A DNA stretch of 8,937 nucleotides from a virus (lineage: Duplodnaviria > Heunggongvirae > Uroviricota > Caudoviricetes). Numbering within the stretch: the stretch's first letter is position 1; every line of letters begins with the position of its first letter. Location: the IMG/VR virus record IMGVR_UViG_2671180511_000005; one strand, given 5' to 3'. This document shows, piece after piece, positions 13-8,937 of this stretch. Under the pieces are notes generated by a model, which saw only the letters and a list, made by a program, of their open reading frames with translations, had not been told where the DNA came from and did not search any database. The position numbers and the translations under genes are program-made.

Positions 13-414
13 TTAATTCGTGTACGTGATCTGGTACGTGATTTCCGCCATCGCCCAGGTGGCCATCTCATTATCACGTTGATAGTTAAAACCGAGTGGG
101 ATCATGGTGTCGATGAGTCCGGAAAGCACCGGAATATCCTTCATGGCCGGAAATATGGTGTTCTCCATCCACGTATCCAGCTCAGAATCCGGCGCCTGTG
201 CACGGACGAAAACGGCAATATGCAGAACAGCCTGCCAGTCGTCCTCATCCGTCATTTTTCCGGTGTACTGCGCATCACTCAGCCACACCGCCACGGCGGG
301 CAGTTCCTGCGCATCAATAAATGCCGGAAGCCCGTCAAAAAACGTGGCGCTGTCTCCACACTGTTCCCGAAGGCGTGCCAGCACGCTCTGACGGATTTGT
401 GTGTGTCGGTTCAT
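13..414 (-). CDS. U: tail terminator protein gpU (lambda U-like)
   Basis: 133-aa ORF. Segments ATFFDG, FPAVAV, YTG, DSELD.WME and a C-terminal ITYQITY match lambda gpU as I recall it. The ATG at 412-414 overlaps the Z stop (ATGA at 411-414), implying translational coupling. Confidence 0.85.
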   Translation of the reverse strand: MNRHTQIRQSVLARLREQCGDSATFFDGLPAFIDAQELPAVAVWLSDAQYTGKMTDEDDWQAVLHIAVFVRAQAPDSELDTWMENTIFPAMKDIPVLSGLIDTMIPLGFNYQRDNEMATWAMAEITYQITYTN

Positions 415-998: not shown

Positions 999-1359
999 AT
1001 CGCCTCATTCTGGCATTATTCTGTGGGGCAGGACTGCCCCGCCTTAACCGGATATAACAGCATCCCCCGTCATCCGGAGTAATACGATCCACAAAGAAAG
1101 AATCATCCCCGATAGTTAACGTATCCTGACGGCGTAACTGCGATATATCTGCCGTTTTCACAAACAGGCACGGTGAGGAATCCTCAAGCCGGATCCCCCC
1201 GGCAACAAAAGAAATACTTTCGGGATCATCAAAAACCCCTGTCAGGTGTGTCCCCTCAAGTTCTCCGGACGTAATGACGGCGCTGATCCCCATATCACGG
1301 AGAATGACTTCATTGACACCGGCAAGCGCAGCATCAAACAGATTATCGAAACCGTCCAC
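982..1359 (-). CDS. FII: head-tail joining / head completion protein gpFII (lambda FII-like)
   Basis: 125-aa ORF: FDNLFDAA, GVFDDPE.IS, RQLRR.DTLTIG and VDR..PDDGG match lambda FII. Start is GTG at 1357-1359, preceded by AGGAG immediately after the FI stop (TAA at 1371-1373). Confidence 0.85.
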   Translation of the reverse strand: MDGFDNLFDAALAGVNEVILRDMGISAVITSGELEGTHLTGVFDDPESISFVAGGIRLEDSSPCLFVKTADISQLRRQDTLTIGDDSFFVDRITPDDGGCCYIRLRRGSPAPQNNARMRRYDEGT

Positions 1360-3278: not shown

Positions 3279-3941
3279 TCATGGCATGGCCATGAGCATT
3301 TTCACGTCCGCATCACCGTCTGCTGACGTCTGTGGCACGCCACCCTGTACCGCTGCCGGTGAATGGTTCGCCATGNNNNNNNNNNNNNNNNNNNNNNNNN
3401 NNNNNNNNNNNNNNNNNNNNNNNNNNNNNNNNNNNNNNNNNNNNNNNNNNNNNNNNNNNNNNNNNNNNNNNNNNNNNNNNNNNNNNNNNNNNNNNNNNNN
3501 NNNNNNNNNNNNNNNNNNNNNNNNNNNNNNNNNNNNNNNNNNNNNNNNTTCAGCCTGCGCCTCTGCCCCTTTTGCCTCATCCAGGGCCATAATCTGATCA
3601 CGAAGTGAGGGTCCGGCATTCGCCTGCGGTGAAGCAGCCAGAATCGGACGGGCTTTTTCCACCGTCATCTCCGGCATCGCCGCCAGCGTTGCCGCCAGTT
3701 GTTCACGTCCTTTCGCCTCTTCACATGCCATAATGCGATCGGCTTCACTCTGCGCAGATACACCAGATTGTTGCGGTGCCGCCACGGCCAGAATCGCCCG
3801 GGCCTGCTCAACGCTCATACCCTGTTGCCCTGCCAGCATCGTGGCCAGTTGTTCACGTCCTTTCGCTTCCTGACACGTCAGGATCCCCATCACTCGCTGG
3901 TTCTCCTGCGCGGCAGCCTCCGTTGCAGTTAATTGCGGCAT
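3279..3941 (-). CDS. nu3: scaffolding protein Nu3, in-frame internal start within C
   Basis: Internal ATG at 3939-3941 (MPQLTATEAA...) is preceded by AGGAGG with a 4-nt spacer and is in the C frame (4844-3941 = 903 nt = 301 codons). It corresponds to where nu3 starts inside C in lambda. Contains the RIMG/EEA.GRE scaffold motif, repeated. Confidence 0.55.
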   Translation of the reverse strand: MPQLTATEAAAQENQRVMGILTCQEAKGREQLATMLAGQQGMSVEQARAILAVAAPQQSGVSAQSEADRIMACEEAKGREQLAATLAAMPEMTVEKARPILAASPQANAGPSLRDQIMALDEAKGAEAQAEXXXXXXXXXXXXXXXXXXXXXXXXXXXXXXXXXXXXXXXXXXXXXXXXXXXXXXXXXXMANHSPAAVQGGVPQTSADGDADVKMLMAMP

Positions 3942-4844
3942 AGTGCCTCCTGTATCGTGTGTGTTCAGCGTCGCAGCCATCACGCTGATGGCGTCCGACG
4001 CATTGATTAATTCATCCGCCAGTTCGGCCTCAATACCGGACTGACCTTCAAAAACGGCGGCCTCTGTTCCCATAACCGCATCCACAGATAAACCGGTATA
4101 CATCGCCACTTTTTCAGCAAACATCCGGCGCGCCGCATCAATGCGCTGCTGCATGTCCTGGCGAACCTTTGCTGGCAGGGATTCAAACTGATTGCCATCC
4201 ACCTTGTGCGATCCGGCGTAAATCAGCGTGATATCCACACCGGCCTGTGCCAGATGACCGGCATAGCTGACATGGCCCATCATCACCCCAATGGAGCCGA
4301 TACGGGATGTCTGGGTAACCAGCCGTCGGGAGCAGGCCGATGCCAGTAACATGGCGGCTGAACAGGCCGTGTCATTGCACAGTGCCCAGACAGGCTTCAG
4401 CTGCCGGAGACGGTAAATCATGTCAGCGCAGTCAAACGCGCCGGTGGCCTGCCCGCCAGAACTGTCAATGTCCAGCAGTACGCCCCGTACCTGAGTGTCC
4501 GCCATTGCCTGCTGAAGACAGGCGACAATGCCGTCATAGCCAGTCATTCCGGAAAATGGCCGCATGCCACCCAGCCGGTGTACCAGCGTGCCGGTCACCG
4601 GCAGTACAGCAATACCGTTCACCACCCGGTAAACACGGGCAGGTCGTTTGCCTCCGGCCATGTACTCGTCCGTTTCAGCCAGCATCCCGGGAGCGTCAAG
4701 CTGTACCTGCTGTTGCGGTACCGAAAGGCTTGCTGCGCCCATCTCACGCCCGAGCGCGCAAAAGAAAACCCGCGCATAGGCGGGCTCCAGAAGCAGCGGC
4801 TCATTGAATGCCGCAGCGATAATATGTGAAAGATTACGTCTCAC
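3279..4844 (-). CDS. C: capsid assembly (prohead) protease gpC, containing the nested scaffold nu3 in the same frame; interrupted by an N-gap at 3376-3548
   Basis: N-terminus AFNEPLLLEPAYARVFFCAL, then GIAVLPV.GTLV, SGMTGY.GI, GAFDCAD, KPVWAL.ND..CSA..LLASA.SRRLVTQT.R.GSIGVMM, ITLIY.GSHKVDGN and FA.KV..YTGLSV all match lambda gpC. Start is GTG at 4842-4844, with GAGGAG about 10 nt upstream and an in-frame TAG further up. Protein length is unknown because of the gap. Confidence 0.88.
   Translation of the reverse strand: MRRNLSHIIAAAFNEPLLLEPAYARVFFCALGREMGAASLSVPQQQVQLDAPGMLAETDEYMAGGKRPARVYRVVNGIAVLPVTGTLVHRLGGMRPFSGMTGYDGIVACLQQAMADTQVRGVLLDIDSSGGQATGAFDCADMIYRLRQLKPVWALCNDTACSAAMLLASACSRRLVTQTSRIGSIGVMMGHVSYAGHLAQAGVDITLIYAGSHKVDGNQFESLPAKVRQDMQQRIDAARRMFAEKVAMYTGLSVDAVMGTEAAVFEGQSGIEAELADELINASDAISVMAATLNTHDTGGTMPQLTATEAAAQENQRVMGILTCQEAKGREQLATMLAGQQGMSVEQARAILAVAAPQQSGVSAQSEADRIMACEEAKGREQLAATLAAMPEMTVEKARPILAASPQANAGPSLRDQIMALDEAKGAEAQAEXXXXXXXXXXXXXXXXXXXXXXXXXXXXXXXXXXXXXXXXXXXXXXXXXXXXXXXXXXMANHSPAAVQGGVPQTSADGDADVKMLMAMP
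3376..3548. other. assembly gap (173 N) inside the C/nu3 coding region
   Basis: Run of N directly visible, flanked on the high-coordinate side by tandem repeat copies. Confidence 1.
3549..3910 (-). repeat. tandem ~150-bp (47-50 aa) repeats within the nu3 scaffold coding region, at least 2 full and 1 partial copy, continuing into the N-gap
   Basis: Exact 22-nt match ccagttgttcacgtcctttcgc at 3695-3716 and 3845-3866 (150 bp apart); gccagaatcg at about 3634-3643 and 3784-3793; gccataat at 3586-3593 and 3727-3734. Protein repeats: RVMGILTCQEAKGREQLATMLA.../ DRIMACEEAKGREQLAATLA.../ DQIMALDEAKGAEAQAE... Confidence 0.8.
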
Positions 4845-6427
4845 GTGATGTTGTCTCCTCTTCCGGCCTGCGACTCTCCGCTATCTGCTGCTGATACGCC
4901 TGGGCTATCCACACCGGACGTGAGAGTCCGGCTTTTTCGCGCTCTGCGGATTCCCTGACCTGCTGGCGGAAAATGTCCTGATAATCTTCGCCCATCAGTG
5001 CCAGTTCTTTCTCATACGTGCTCAGTCCGGCCTCAATGCGCATCACCGATTCCTGGACCTCCTTGAGCCCGTCAATGGCCATTCTTCCGGAGCTAATCCA
5101 CTCTGCCCGTGACCAGGCTGAACGCGCCTGGTAAAAATCAAAACGCGCCCGTGGCGGACGAATAATCCCCCGAAGAAGCGCCTCTTCCAGCCAGCAGGAA
5201 AACATCTGCGTGGCCAGCCGGGCCGCAATAAATTTTCGCCGCCCCATAAAATAGCGCCACGACTCATTGGCGGAGGCGCGGGCACTTGAGTAACTGACCT
5301 TCGAGTAATCACGGGACAACTGTTCGTAGGAAACGCCAAGACCGGCTGCAATATACCGCAGCAGCGCCTGTTCAAGCGCCGAAAATCCATTGTCTGAATC
5401 CTGCGCTGTCTGCAGGTTCAGCGCATCGCCAGGAAAAAAGGTGCGGAATTTTAACACCGCCCAGCGTCACGTTATTCGTGTCATACCAGCGGGTGAACTT
5501 CTCCAGAATATTAATAAGCGGATTATCCTGCTGACCTTGCGGTGCCCCCGCGATATATTCAAATGCCTTTTCGGTATCAAGTTCACTTTCGATTGTGGCT
5601 GCATACATCGCCTTCACAATGGCCGACTGAAGCTGCGTGGCCTGCAGGGAGTCCAGCATCTTCATCCGCTCCATTACGCTGTAAAACTGATTAGCCCCAC
5701 GGGTCTGCCCGTCCTCCACCGGCTCAAAAATATGCAGCATGGCCGGACGCCCGGTGGGAAGCTCACGCGGGATCCGCTCCCAGCGTCCGGCACCAGAGAA
5801 CGGAAAATCATCCTCACAGATATGGTACGCAATCGCCCGCCCATACCGATCGACCTCAACCCCGGCCCGCAGAAAGTGGTTCCCCATACCGTGTCCTGGC
5901 GTGTCCACCCGTTTCGGACTCACGGCTTTAAAACGCGTACGGAATAACTGCGTGGTTTCCGTATCCCAGACCGGCTGCACAAAGATTTCGCCGTTAAAGG
6001 CATGCACGCCCACCCCTTCACGGATAAATTCCGTAAACGTGCGTTTCCCTTCCACGTCGATCTCGCCAAACATTCCTTCTGCGTATTCCGACCAGGCTGC
6101 TTCCACCTCCCCGACAAAACTTTTTGCCGTGGTCTCCCGCATCCCCAGCCAACGCCAGTTCAGACGGTAGCTGATAAGAAACATGTGCCCGACGATATGA
6201 TCCTTATGCAGGGCCACCGCATTAGCCGCGATACCGTTATTGCGCACCAGATCATCTGCCCGGGCATTCCCCAGACGCAATGCAGGCAACAGGGCCGCAT
6301 CGGCACTCTGCGCCGGTGGTAACCACTCTGCCATTTGCCCGCCAAATCCTGCGCCGCCTCCGTTGTAGCTGAGACTCTCACGAAGCGGAACGCCGTTCAC
6401 ATCAATCAGGACAGGCGTTCGTTTCAT
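4834..6427 (-). CDS. B: portal protein gpB (lambda B-like), interrupted by a +1 frameshift in an A6 (sense T6) homopolymer at 5434-5439; either a pseudogene or a sequencing error
   Basis: Two ORFs (5372-6427 and 4834-5457) together match lambda gpB end to end: YNGGG.GFGGQ, LLP..R.GNARADDLVRNNG.AANA, IPRELP.GR, FEPVEDGQTRGAN.FYSVME.MKMLD.LQ.TQLQSAIVKAMYAATIESELDT in the first; PGD.LNLQTAQD.DNG, LLRYIAAGLGVSYEQLSR, SANESW.YFMGRRKF and SGRMAIDGLKEVQE in the second. Removing one base from the run restores ...PHLFPGDALNLQ... (lambda has ...PHLMPGDSLNLQ...). ATGA overlap with W at 6424-6427. Confidence 0.85.
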
Positions 6428-6627
6428 AACCTCACTCCCAGCGGTCGGCGGCGTCGGGTCGTACCCAGAACCGACTCCGCATCGTTGATCGCACGGTTAA
6501 GCTCATTCAGGGACGCTGCCGTATATTCGATCCTGCGACCGTCTTTCTGTACCGACACAACCCGTTTACCGGTTAATAAATCAAGGCGCGCCTGACGCAG
6601 CGCCTGCAGTTCAGCGACTGTAACCAT
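6424..6627 (-). CDS. W: head-tail joining / head completion protein gpW (lambda W-like)
   Basis: 67-aa ORF: E.L.A.R.A...L.TGKRV..VQKDGRR.E.T..S and a C-terminal RRRR match lambda gpW. ATG at 6625-6627 preceded by GGAGGAG and by the TGA of A (TGAATG). Confidence 0.85.
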   Translation of the reverse strand: MVTVAELQALRQARLDLLTGKRVVSVQKDGRRIEYTAASLNELNRAINDAESVLGTTRRRRPLGVRL

Positions 6628-8601
6628 TCACTCCTCCGGACAGCTTCGCTGCCAGTTCTTCAAGGGTCGGTTGTGCAGTTGCATCCTTGCGGGATGCAAC
6701 TGCACAGCCAGATCAAGNNNNNNNNNNNNNNNNNNNNNNNNNNNNNNNNNNNNNNNNNNNNNNNNNNNNNNNNNNNNNNNNNNNNNNNNNNNNNNNNNNN
6801 NNNNNNNNNNNNNNNGGCATACACCAGGCAGTCCAGCGCTTCGTTACGCCGCTTTTTGTTATCCCACAACAGACGCATCTTTCCTTTTTCCCACTTTTCC
6901 ACCAGTTCCTCCGCCACCAGTTGTTGTGCCTCTGTCTGCGAAAAAATCTCCGGATTATCAGGAAAGCGGATGGCATACGATGTGGCCTCATTCACAGGGG
7001 TGGGATCGGCCTTCATTCGGGCATAGAGAATTTCTTTTGCGGTATCCGTCCCCACCTCACACAGATACACACCCCGCTGATTGCGGGTTTTCGGCATGGT
7101 GATCACCGGCTTGCCATAGACAGAGGCACCTTTTACCGGCAGTACCCGGAAAATACCGTGTTTTTTTGACCTCTGATACACGATTTCGCCATCGATCCCC
7201 CCGATATCCCAGCAGACACGGGAAATGGTCATTTCGGTACCGTCTGCATGGCGGTATTTTTTATTGATCGCCGCATCCACACGTAACAGCGTCTCTTCCT
7301 CATCAGGACGTCCCATGATGATGATTTTATCCACCAGAAAGGCTTCCTCTCCCGGAGCCCACCCCCAGACATACATCTCAAAACGGTTTCGCTGCGAGTC
7401 AATGCCCGCCGTCAGATAAACCACCCGGACAGGCACCGTTGCCGTGTAAGGCACAACCTTATCCATCAGTACCTGGTGATCGAGTTTTTCGCCCACGGCC
7501 TCTTCCCAGGTCTCGCCCAGCGTGGTGTTCACAAAAGTTTTCACGCCGTTGGGATCTTTCAGTGCATCCAGCCAGTCACAGACTATCTGTACCCTGGTGG
7601 TGAACGGACTGTACGCCGTCCATATATGGAAAGTGATGGAGCGCGGCGGCGGAATTTCATTACCCGAAGCACTGAAAAACGTCAGACCGTCACACGTCCA
7701 CATCCCGGTATTGTCACAAATCCAGCGCCCCCCGGTCTGATCAAGTTCAGACTGACGGATCACGCAGCCATTATGTTCACACAGGTAATACACCGTTTCC
7801 GGTTTACCCTTCTCCCATTTCAGGCCAAACGACGTCGCATCATCGCCAAACTTCAGATACTGCTCCTCCCCGCAATGAGGGCAAGGGACATAAAACCGCA
7901 TGAAATGCGCAGATTCATTCGCAGCTTTTTCAATCTGACAGGAGCCTTTAATTTTTGGCGTTGAACCGCGTATGGATTTTGGCCATACCGAACCTTCAAT
8001 ACGTTTATCGCCAAGCAGTGTTGGCGAACCTTCTTTTTCCACATCCGGTTCAAACGAGGAGAGTTCGTCATAGCAGACCACATCGACAGATTTTTCACGG
8101 TAGTTTTTGGCAGCAGCACCACCCAAACACCAGAACCCCACACCAGAGGAAAAACGCTTCAGTGTGAGCGTATTATCCCGGTGTTTCCGGCCCAGCCAGG
8201 GAGAAAGTTTTTTCAGGCAAGGAACATCACGAATTGTTGCTTCCACGTGAGACTTCATAAAATCTTCAGCAGCTGAGTCCGTCGGCTGAAAAAGAAGAGT
8301 GTTGCGGGATTTGTGCTCAATAAAATACCCGATCACACCAAGCACCATTTTTGTATAACCAACACGGGCAGATTTAATCAGGTTAACTGTACGAATCTCG
8401 TCATTGCCCATGCAGTTCATGATGGCGACCTGAAACTGCAGCGTTTTCCATTCCCCCTCACCGTATGACGATTCTTTAGGCAGGTAATAATTTTGATCGG
8501 CCCATTCTACAGCCGTCACCGGCAATACCCTGACCAGTGGCTGCAGTGCGATAGTGACTGCCACCATCATATTACTCAGTTGTTGTTCTGATATATTCAT
8601 C
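6628..8601 (-). CDS. A: terminase large subunit gpA (lambda A-like), interrupted by an N-gap at 6718-6815
   Basis: The supplied ORF frame (stop at 6660) matches lambda gpA from MNIS... onward: AVEWAD.NYYLPKES, KSARVGY.K, EHK.RNTL, KNYREKSVDV, GSPT.LGDKRIEGSVWPKSIRGSTPK, CPHCGEEQYLKFGD, FHIWTAYSPFT, FVNTTLGETWE, YLTAGIDSQ, WGW.PGEE, SKKHG.FRV.P.KGASVYGKP, GTDTAKE and RRNEALDC.VYA. I place the start at ATG 8599-8601 (MNISEQQ), 19 codons inside the ORF-finder start. After the gap the lambda-like C-terminus (LDLAVQLH...SCPEE-stop) is in a different frame, that of W, ending TGA 6628-6630, so the N-run is not a base-for-base placeholder. Confidence 0.88.
6672..6706. repeat. perfect 15-bp inverted repeat with a 5-nt loop, inside the 3' end of A and 11 bp from the N-gap
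   Basis: tgtgcagttgcatcc (6672-6686), ttgcg loop, ggatgcaactgcaca (6692-6706); the arms are exact reverse complements (checked base by base). Confidence 0.9.
6718..6815. other. assembly gap (98 N) inside the A coding region
   Basis: Run of N directly visible; the reading frame of A differs on the two sides. Confidence 1.
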
Positions 8602-8895
8602 GAGTAAATCCGGTAATTTATCCCCCGCACGCGCGCACTGATTCGCTCCCTTAGCAATAAGGATTTTCAGATGATCAATATGACGCGGCGTTAAATCCGG
8701 GAACTGTCGTTGCATGGACAAAGGAATGGAGTCAAGCGTACTGGATAAAGCCATCGCCAGCTTACTAAGGGCAAAAATACAAAATCCGGTATCGATAAGA
8801 TTTCCTTTTGACACCTGATTTTTTAACTGCTGTGCGACAGCCTGTTCTGCGGTCAGTTCCCATCTGGCAATGAGTAGTTTGAGGTGTACTGGCAA
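8572..8895 (-). CDS. nu1: terminase small subunit gpNu1, C-terminal (gpA-interacting) portion only; N-terminus interrupted or truncated
   Basis: 107-aa ORF: AEQAVAQQLKN, GFCIFALSKLA...S.LD..PLS.QR.FP.L..RH.D.LK and LLDEYI match the C-terminal half of lambda Nu1. Its stop (8572-8574) overlaps the start of A by 30 nt, as in lambda. The only start in frame is TTG at 8893-8895, and an in-frame TAG at 8905-8907 lies just upstream, so the lambda-like N-terminal DNA-binding domain is not encoded in this frame. Confidence 0.6.
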   Translation of the reverse strand: MPVHLKLLIARWELTAEQAVAQQLKNQVSKGNLIDTGFCIFALSKLAMALSSTLDSIPLSMQRQFPDLTPRHIDHLKILIAKGANQCARAGDKLPDLLDEYIRTTTE

Positions 8896-8937
8896 TAGCG
8901 GACACTACCATTTGTTCTTTTTTTAAGCAGCCATCTG

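What the first reader, a model, noticed from the sequence alone, without database searches (positions are those of the whole stretch)
5428..5446. Portal gene B is split by a single-base frameshift in an A6/T6 homopolymer
The portal protein is essential for procapsid assembly and DNA packaging. Here its lambda-like sequence continues across two reading frames, with the switch exactly at a six-base homopolymer (plus-strand A6 at 5434-5439). Deleting one base restores a continuous ...GGVKIPHLFPGDALNLQ... product colinear with lambda gpB. If the base is real, this element cannot make a full portal and is a defective prophage unless rescued; if not, it is a homopolymer error in a draft assembly that also carries N-gaps. 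The direction is +1 with no known slippery or stimulatory context, so I do not favour programmed frameshifting.
Basis: partly seen in the sequence, partly recalled or inferred. Interest (0 to 1): 0.6.

Follow-up and report, generated by a model that had tools for sequence, protein, structure and literature searches.

The report
Frameshifted portal gene, Shigella cryptic prophage
The one-base frameshift that splits the phage portal gene is real, not a sequencing error. It is an inherited, already-annotated pseudogene in a decaying lambda-like prophage found across Shigella flexneri, so it is ordinary.

Summary
The plus strand has A6 at 5434-5439 (T6 on the coding minus strand). This splits a lambda-family portal gene into a 351-codon ORF (5372-6427) and a 207-codon ORF (4834-5457). 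Pfam PF05136 is cut exactly there, at profile positions 2-288 and 288-354. Deleting one base gives a 530-aa protein colinear with lambda gpB (E=4e-213).

The extra base is not an assembly artefact:
- The exact 351-aa truncated product is on at least 1000 contigs (2587 collection blocks). These include independent finished S. flexneri genomes (2a 301, 2457T and others).
- T6 is present in 12 of 12 Shigella-type chromosomal loci inspected.
- The nearest E. coli relatives (one other nucleotide difference in 1593) have T5 and an intact gene. Phage 21 has T4.
- None of 5426 complete E. coli genomes carries the A6 version.

The window is 100% identical to S. flexneri CP012735.1.

The prophage is dead in other ways too. 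IS600 truncates the small terminase gene. The cos region is deleted. A template-switch mutation replaces the portal-binding C-terminus of the large terminase.

Programmed frameshifting and transcriptional slippage are not supported.

One loose end: an in-frame "repaired" S. flexneri allele exists on 19 contigs. These are either revertants or long-read homopolymer under-calls.

Low interest; already known.

The parts
5434..5439 (-). Frameshift site: T6 on the coding strand (A6 on +). Context is CAC CTT TTT TCC TGG. The ancestral state was T5 (CAC CTT TTT CCT GGC = H L F P G).
   Evidence: E. coli CFSAN029787 and FDAARGOS_943 have T5 and phage 21 has T4. All 12 Shigella-type chromosomal loci inspected have T6.
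5372..6427 (-). Portal pseudogene, 5' fragment: 331 native residues plus 20 out-of-frame residues and a stop. It corresponds to the lambda gpB N-terminal wing, first stem helix and most of the clip.
   Evidence: (PF05136 positions 2-288). Domain limits are from PMC10721106. The exact product is found on at least 1000 contigs.
4834..5433 (-). Portal pseudogene, 3' part in the +1 frame (native residues 332-530 plus stop). It encodes the second stem helix, the tunnel-loop part of the wing, and the crown. It carries a lineage-specific G445S change (window 5094) at a Gly that is conserved in lambda gpB.
   Evidence: PF05136 positions 288-354; 5094 A/G polymorphism among S. flexneri.
6424..6627 (-). 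gpW-like head-tail joining gene (67 aa), intact, immediately upstream of the portal gene.
   Evidence: (PF02831, 5.3e-22).
6628..8600 (-). Large terminase (gpA-like) gene, interrupted in the window by the N gap at 6718-6815. Its last 30 codons are replaced by 24 out-of-frame codons because of TGGCG->AGTT at 6698-6702.
   Evidence: Coordinates were transferred from the identical locus L005.
6669..6709 (.). Inverted repeat with 18-nt arms and a 5-nt loop, created by the 6698-6702 change. This is the signature of a quasi-palindrome template switch. It is absent from S. flexneri lineages with an intact gpA 3' end.
   Evidence: arms 6669-6686 and 6692-6709, 94% complementary; none in L004..
8572..8879 (-). 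3' remnant of the small terminase (Nu1-like) gene. The N-terminal part of the gene, which in lambda Nu1 is the DNA-binding domain, is missing.
   Evidence: PF07471, only profile positions 85-163 of 164. (homology to E. coli ends at window 8880)..
8880..8937 (.). Terminal 58 bases of an IS600 (IS3 family) copy inserted in Nu1. This is the window's right edge.
   Evidence: matches other IS copies in the loci. (annotated 'IS3-like element IS600 family transposase', 99% identity).
3279..4844 (-). Head protease/scaffold gene (gpC/Nu3-like, S49 peptidase), downstream of and overlapping the portal stop. It is intact apart from the N gap at 3376-3548.

Best explanation
The window is a short scaffold of a Shigella flexneri draft genome. 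It covers the head-gene block (Nu1'-A-W-B-C-D-E-FI-FII-Z-U) of a cryptic lambdoid prophage with phage-21-type head genes.

One extra T was inserted into a T5 run in the portal gene, most likely by replication slippage. This happened in an ancestor of the S. flexneri lineages sampled here and has been inherited clonally.

Translation now leaves the portal frame after residue F331, which is lambda gpB residue 334, near the end of the clip domain. It stops 20 codons later. The product lacks the second stem helix, the tunnel-loop half of the wing, and the crown, so it cannot form a working dodecameric portal.

The gene is a true pseudogene, and one of several independent lesions in a prophage that can no longer package DNA.

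Shown here: the sequence, its distribution and the other lesions. Inferred: the slippage mechanism, the loss of function and the order of events.
For: 1. The exact 351-aa truncated product occurs on at least 1000 contigs, in 2587 blocks of the collection. Sources name it in S. flexneri 2a str. 301 (AAN42336.1), and it lies on AE014073.1 (2457T by my own knowledge), plus further accessions (ABF04804.1, ADA73063.1).
2. T6 was read directly in 10 of 10 fetched S. flexneri chromosomal loci, and in both hits of the species-representative genome scan. Both T6 contigs in IMG/VR carry the same lineage markers.
3. The window is 100% identical over all 8666 non-N bases to L003 (WACK01000005.1) and L005 (CP012735.1).
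4. T6 is shared by two S. flexneri sub-lineages that differ at other sites: 5094 A/G, the gpA 3' end, and a 22-SNP patch in U. It therefore predates their split.
5. The closest E. coli genes have T5 and an intact 530-aa portal. They differ from the repaired window gene by one other nucleotide in 1593. None of 5426 complete E. coli genomes has the A6 72-mer. The 17 phage records that cover the whole query, and every listed E. coli genome, span 1593 nt rather than 1594.
6. The tract length runs T4 (phage 21), T5 (E. coli CFSAN029787), T6 (S. flexneri).
7. The only other change in the gene, G445S, lies downstream of the frameshift at a Gly conserved in lambda. This fits relaxed constraint.
8. Independent lesions are present: IS600 in Nu1, a cos/Nu1-5' deletion, and a frameshifted gpA C-terminus.
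9. The literature states that S. flexneri prophages are generally cryptic (PMC5596473).
Against: An in-frame 'repaired' portal carrying the lineage-specific S445 exists under an S. flexneri name (WP_134799197.1 / QBQ21922.1) on 19 contigs, one of them 4.66 Mb. So T6 is not universal in the deposited data. These contigs could be true T6->T5 revertants or homopolymer under-calls in long-read assemblies. I could not fetch them.

No raw reads for this particular assembly were available.

Loss of function of the truncated protein is inferred from the lambda structure, not tested.
Confidence: 0.93

Rival explanations
1. Homopolymer sequencing or assembly error peculiar to this N-gapped draft; the real genome has T5 and an intact portal gene.
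For: The assembly is a draft whose scaffold gaps have wrong estimated sizes: 173 N against a true 113 bp, and 98 N against 36 bp. A few S. flexneri records do encode the in-frame protein.
Against: Identical T6 occurs in at least 1000 contigs and in 12 of 12 Shigella-type chromosomes inspected. These include the genomes from 2002-2003, which by my own knowledge were Sanger-finished. Every other non-N base of the window matches finished genomes exactly.
Confidence: 0.02
2. Recoding: a full-length portal is still made, either by +1 ribosomal frameshifting on CUU UUU U or by RNA-polymerase slippage that deletes one U in the T6 run.
For: tRNA-Leu (CUU to UUU) or tRNA-Phe (UUU to UUU) could re-pair in the +1 frame and would give exactly the ancestral H-L-F-P-G sequence (sequence). 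S. flexneri does use transcriptional slippage for mxiE (PMC1088944). The 94 nt downstream fold slightly better than shuffles (z=-1.94).
Against: The site is derived, not conserved. All relatives outside S. flexneri are in frame. There is no A-site stop or rare codon (the next codon is UCC), and no Shine-Dalgarno-like stimulator 3 nt upstream (AUUCCGCAC). Efficient slippage and selection against it are seen at runs of about nine A/T, not six. The fold score is weak (9 of 200 shuffles do as well), and the same downstream sequence is present in the in-frame relatives. Even a restored portal could not rescue a prophage with Nu1 disrupted and cos deleted.
Confidence: 0.02
3. Exaptation: the 331-residue N-terminal portal fragment is kept because it does something for the host, for example poisoning portal-ring assembly of superinfecting lambdoid phages.
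For: The 5' ORF is unchanged at protein level in all loci retrieved. The one SNP seen in it (window 5693, in L006) is synonymous, while the 3' part carries a non-synonymous change.
Against: The loci were retrieved by exact match to that protein, so its invariance is circular. Divergence among S. flexneri is far too low (0-3 SNPs in the gene) for any test of selection. Clonal inheritance explains the retention. No expression data exist.
Confidence: 0.03

Closest known systems
Phage 21 / lambda portal protein (lambda gpB; phage 21 portal UMO75419.1; Pfam PF05136; PDB 8k38)
   Same: 93.5% nt identity to the phage 21 portal gene. Colinear with lambda gpB over residues 5-527 (E=4e-213). Same gene order A-W-B-C-D-E.
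   Different: The reading frame is broken after residue 331 by one extra T, so no full-length product is encoded.
Intact orthologue in E. coli prophages (WP_046880246.1 in strain CFSAN029787)
   Same: Differs from the repaired window gene by a single nucleotide in 1593. Flanking head genes are about 96-99% identical.
   Different: Has T5 and an intact 530-aa ORF. Nu1 is complete, the region upstream of Nu1 is contiguous, and there is no IS600.
Split 'head-tail preconnector gp5' ORFs annotated in S. flexneri 2a 301 and 2457T (AAN42336.1 + AAN42337.2; AAP16213.1 + AAP16214.1)
   Same: Identical protein fragments (351 aa and 207 aa) and, for 2457T, identical DNA across 3549-8937.
   Different: Nothing at the site itself. 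2457T differs from the window only in a 22-SNP patch in gene U (window 61-298).
Programmed +1 frameshift (prfB) and transcriptional slippage (S. flexneri mxiE, T. thermophilus dnaX)
   Same: A homopolymeric U/T tract lies at the frame junction. CUU-U is also the prfB shift codon context (own knowledge; for mxiE and dnaX).
   Different: The run is only 6 long, against about 9. There is no stop codon or SD stimulator. The site is not conserved, because the ancestral state is in frame.

Membership tests
Lambda-family phage portal gene (PF05136), as a pseudogene | Significant match to the PF05136 profile | tested here: met
   Fragment 1 scores 228.7 bits and fragment 2 scores 80.4 bits, against a cutoff of 32.9. 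The matches abut at profile position 288.
Lambda-family phage portal gene (PF05136), as a pseudogene | Colinearity with an experimentally solved lambda-family portal | tested here: met
   The repaired protein aligns with 8k38 lambda gpB at E=4.4e-213, residues 5-527 against 7-530.
Lambda-family phage portal gene (PF05136), as a pseudogene | Head-gene synteny (terminase - W - portal - protease/scaffold - D - E) | tested here: met
Lambda-family phage portal gene (PF05136), as a pseudogene | Uninterrupted reading frame (needed for a functional member) | tested here: not met
   The frame is broken at 5434-5439. It is therefore filed as a pseudogene.
Sequencing/assembly homopolymer artefact | The indel is private to one assembly and absent from independent high-quality genomes of the same lineage | tested here: not met
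   At least 1000 contigs, including finished chromosomes, carry it.
Sequencing/assembly homopolymer artefact | Read pile-up disagrees with the consensus | not testable with these tools
   No reads were available.
Programmed +1 ribosomal frameshift (prfB type) | Shift site and two-frame organisation conserved among homologues | tested here: not met
   All phage and E. coli homologues are single-frame, with T5 or T4.
Programmed +1 ribosomal frameshift (prfB type) | Slow A-site codon (stop or rare) plus an upstream SD-like stimulator | tested here: not met
   The A-site codon is UCC and the upstream sequence is AAAAUUCCGCAC. The criteria are from established knowledge of prfB.
Transcriptional slippage site (mxiE / dnaX type) | A/T run of about 9, conserved in length among homologues | tested here: not met
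   The run is 6, and its length differs among homologues (4, 5, 6). The threshold is from PMC1088944.
Phase-variable (contingency) homopolymer locus | Tract length polymorphic within the population, switching the gene on and off | tested here: inconclusive
   T6 is on at least 1000 contigs. A T5 allele with the lineage-specific S445 is on 19 contigs, and these could be revertants or sequencing errors. The contigs could not be fetched.
Cryptic (defective) lambdoid prophage | Multiple independent inactivating lesions in essential genes or sites | tested here: met
   Portal frameshift; IS600 in Nu1; cos/Nu1-5' deleted in the window's lineage; gpA C-terminus frameshifted.
Cryptic (defective) lambdoid prophage | Failure to produce particles on induction | not testable with these tools
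   This needs an experiment.

The most novel reading that the evidence does not exclude
The truncated N-terminal portal fragment (wing, first stem helix and most of the clip; 331 native residues) is expressed. It acts as a dominant-negative subunit that poisons portal-ring assembly of incoming phage-21 or lambda-type phages, so a decayed prophage gene would serve as a defence. A weaker variant: the T6/T5 tract toggles by slippage, as hinted by the 19 in-frame S. flexneri contigs.
Probability: 0.03. Interest if true: 0.5.

Novelty: already known. Interest (0 to 1): 0.08.

Why it matters
It matters little beyond annotation hygiene. The site shows that a homopolymer frameshift in an N-gapped draft is not automatically an error: comparison with independent genomes of the same lineage settles the question without reads.

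Biologically it is one more example of pseudogene and IS-driven decay of prophages in Shigella flexneri. This locus has been deposited as two split ORFs since the first S. flexneri genomes.

The T6 allele, the IS600 junction in Nu1 and the gpA template-switch mutation could serve as lineage markers.

Tried and rejected
1. Assembly artefact. Rejected after exact-protein and DNA look-ups.
2. Programmed +1 frameshifting or transcriptional slippage. Rejected on lack of conservation, run length and missing stimulators. The downstream RNA fold is only weakly better than shuffles (z=-1.94).
3. Fetching the 19 S. flexneri contigs that encode the in-frame S445 portal. An IMG/VR scan found only T5+G (E. 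coli type) and T6+A haplotypes, with no T5+A.
4. Reading the original genome papers for strains 301 and 2457T (PMC137130, PMC153260). Neither is held.
5. Looking for a named description of this prophage or its cargo (ipaH) in the literature. Only general statements were found that S. flexneri prophages are cryptic. A link to a chromosomal ipaH gene is recalled from memory only and was not tested.
6. No structure prediction or large protein searches were run, because a solved homologue at E=4e-213 made them unnecessary.

Full report
**The observation.**
The plus strand carries A6 at 5434-5439. On the minus strand a 351-codon ORF (5372-6427) and a 207-codon ORF (4834-5457) overlap around this run. 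Both match Pfam PF05136, the lambda-family portal. The first covers profile positions 2-288 and the second covers 288-354, so a single domain is cut exactly at the homopolymer. Deleting one base gives a 1593-nt gene for a 530-aa protein reading ...GGVKIPHLFPGDALNLQ.... That protein aligns from end to end with the solved lambda portal gpB (8k38, E=4.4e-213). The frame change needed is +1.

**Is the extra base real?**
Four lines of evidence say yes.
- The nearest relatives in 5426 complete E. coli genomes (strains CFSAN029787, FDAARGOS_943 and three others) have A5 at the site and an annotated intact portal gene. They are otherwise nearly identical: CFSAN029787 differs from the repaired gene by one nucleotide.
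- No complete E. coli genome carries the A6 version of a 72-nt probe.
- An exact-sequence look-up of the truncated 351-aa product found it on at least 1000 contigs, in 2587 blocks of the collection. Sources name it in Shigella flexneri, including 2a str. 301 (AAN42336.1). It also lies on AE014073.1, and further accessions include ABF04804.1 and ADA73063.1. From my own knowledge, AE014073 is strain 2457T, and 301 and 2457T were Sanger-finished in 2002-2003.
- I read T6 directly in the DNA of all ten chromosomal loci returned. It is also in both hits of a scan of species-representative genomes: S. flexneri SFBU1023, and CP178302.1, which is the same record as one of those ten loci (L008). Two IMG/VR prophage contigs carry it as well.

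The window is 100% identical over all 8666 non-N bases to WACK01000005.1 and CP012735.1. It is therefore a S. flexneri scaffold. The frameshift is an inherited feature of that lineage, not an error of this draft.

**History of the site.**
Phage 21 reads CAC CTT TTC CCT (T4). The E. coli CFSAN029787-type allele reads CAC CTT TTT CCT (T5). S. flexneri reads CAC CTT TTT TCC (T6). A synonymous C-to-T change lengthened the run, and a one-base insertion then broke the frame. Replication slippage is the likely mechanism, but that is inference.

T6 is shared by two S. flexneri sub-lineages that differ elsewhere in the window: at 5094 A/G, at the gpA 3' end, and in a 22-SNP patch in gene U. The insertion therefore predates their split.

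The only other difference between the repaired window gene and the CFSAN029787 gene is G445S (window 5094). It lies downstream of the frameshift, at a Gly conserved in lambda gpB, and occurs in only one sub-lineage. This fits relaxed constraint on a dead reading frame.

**Consequence for the protein.**
The last native residue, F331, aligns with lambda gpB residue 334. The published gpB domain limits are wing 24-249 and 368-452, stem 250-279 and 343-367, clip 280-342, and crown 453-511 (PMC10721106). The break therefore falls near the end of the clip. The product loses the second stem helix, the wing segment that carries the tunnel loop (Gln379 contacts DNA), and the crown. A working dodecameric channel is not expected from this fragment. 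This is inferred, not tested.

**The prophage is defective in other ways.**
- Homology to E. coli stops at window 8880. The last 58 bases are the end of an IS600 copy.
- The remaining Nu1 ORF matches only positions 85-163 of the 164-position Pfam profile. The N-terminal part of the small terminase is missing; in lambda this is the DNA-binding domain (own knowledge).
- In the window's lineage, the Nu1 5' part and about 2.5 kb upstream of it, where cos lies in lambdoid phages, are deleted. In the other lineage they are separated from the rest of Nu1 by about 3.8 kb of IS elements.
- In the window's lineage, TGGCG became AGTT at 6698-6702. This replaces the last 30 residues of the large terminase with 24 out-of-frame residues. 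From established lambda work (own knowledge), this region is the portal-binding end of gpA.
- The same change turns an imperfect palindrome into an 18-nt inverted repeat, which is the signature of a template-switch mutation.

The other head genes in the window (W, C, D, E, FI, FII, Z, U) have the same lengths as in intact relatives. General literature describes S. flexneri prophages as cryptic through gene loss (PMC5596473).

**Rivals.**
- *Recoding.* tRNA re-pairing on CUU UUU U would regenerate the ancestral peptide. However, the site is derived rather than conserved and the next codon is an ordinary UCC. There is no SD-like element at the right distance, and a run of six is well below the roughly nine-base runs at which slippage is efficient and selected against (PMC1088944). 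The downstream RNA folds only marginally better than shuffles (z=-1.94), and the same sequence is present in the in-frame relatives.
- *Exaptation of the N-terminal fragment.* This cannot be tested with so little divergence. It has no positive support.

**Open point.**
The in-frame "repaired" protein that also carries the lineage-specific S445 exists in the collection under an S. flexneri name (WP_134799197.1 / QBQ21922.1). It is on 19 contigs, one of them 4.66 Mb. Given the haplotypes seen, this is either a T6-to-T5 reversion or a homopolymer under-call in some assemblies. I could not fetch those contigs, and the IMG/VR scan held no such haplotype. This does not affect the verdict for the window.

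**Verdict.**
This is a real, lineage-fixed frameshift pseudogene of the portal gene in a known cryptic lambdoid prophage of S. flexneri. It has been deposited as two split ORFs since the first S. flexneri genomes. It is ordinary and already known.

Noticed in passing
window 6669-6709 (change at 6698-6702): Three substitutions and a 1-bp deletion (TGGCG->AGTT) near the 3' end of the large terminase gene turn an imperfect palindrome into an inverted repeat with 18-nt arms and a 5-nt loop. This is a textbook quasi-palindrome template-switch mutation. It frameshifts the last 30 codons of gpA. It is present in 5 of the 10 S. flexneri loci, including AE014073.1 (2457T by my own knowledge).
   Followed up: yes
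window 8880-8937 and 8572-8879: The window ends 58 bases into an IS600 copy inserted in the small terminase gene Nu1. Only the C-terminal half of Nu1 remains. In this lineage cos and the Nu1 5' end are deleted. In another S. flexneri lineage they survive about 3.8 kb away, behind a pile of IS elements.
   Followed up: yes
window 3376-3548 and 6718-6815: The two N runs (173 and 98 N) stand for only 113 and 36 real bases in identical finished genomes. They are scaffolding gaps with over-estimated sizes, each too long by about 60 bases. Reading frames across them in the window (genes C and A) are therefore meaningless. The GC dips in the composition profile there are caused by the N runs.
   Followed up: partly
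window 61-298 (gene U): There are 22 SNPs packed into about 240 bp between the window and AE014073.1 (2457T by my own knowledge), which is otherwise identical over the rest of the window. This looks like a gene-conversion or recombination patch, probably from a paralogous lambdoid prophage in the same genome.
   Followed up: no
window 5094: G->A (G445S in the repaired portal) at a glycine conserved in lambda gpB. It lies downstream of the frameshift and occurs in only one S. flexneri sub-lineage, which fits drift in a dead frame.
   Followed up: yes
protein WP_134799197.1 / QBQ21922.1 (not in the window): An in-frame 530-aa portal identical to the window's gene with one T removed, S445 included, is deposited as S. 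flexneri on 19 contigs. These are either true homopolymer revertants or long-read under-calls.
   Followed up: partly
window 1195-1200; L002 2236-2588: The window's C6 run in the FII-like head-tail joining gene is C5 in E. coli FDAARGOS_943, where RefSeq flags the gene as 'frameshifted' next to an ISEc60 insertion. This is a second homopolymer frameshift in this prophage family, in the relative rather than in the window.
   Followed up: partly
L008 / L014 (CP178302.1): This record is titled 'Escherichia coli strain ECMA0423' (4.44 Mb). It carries the Shigella-type locus (T6, IS600 in Nu1) plus two further single-base indels that split gpA into 201-aa and 397-aa ORFs. It is probably a Shigella-like genome under an E. 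coli name, with either extra decay or long-read indel errors.
   Followed up: no
contig-length distribution: In 2146 of 2587 collection blocks, the longest contig carrying the truncated portal is 5-10 kb, similar to this 8.9-kb window. Short-read assemblies of S. flexneri evidently break at the same repeats, IS600 on one side and prophage paralogy in gene U on the other.
   Followed up: no
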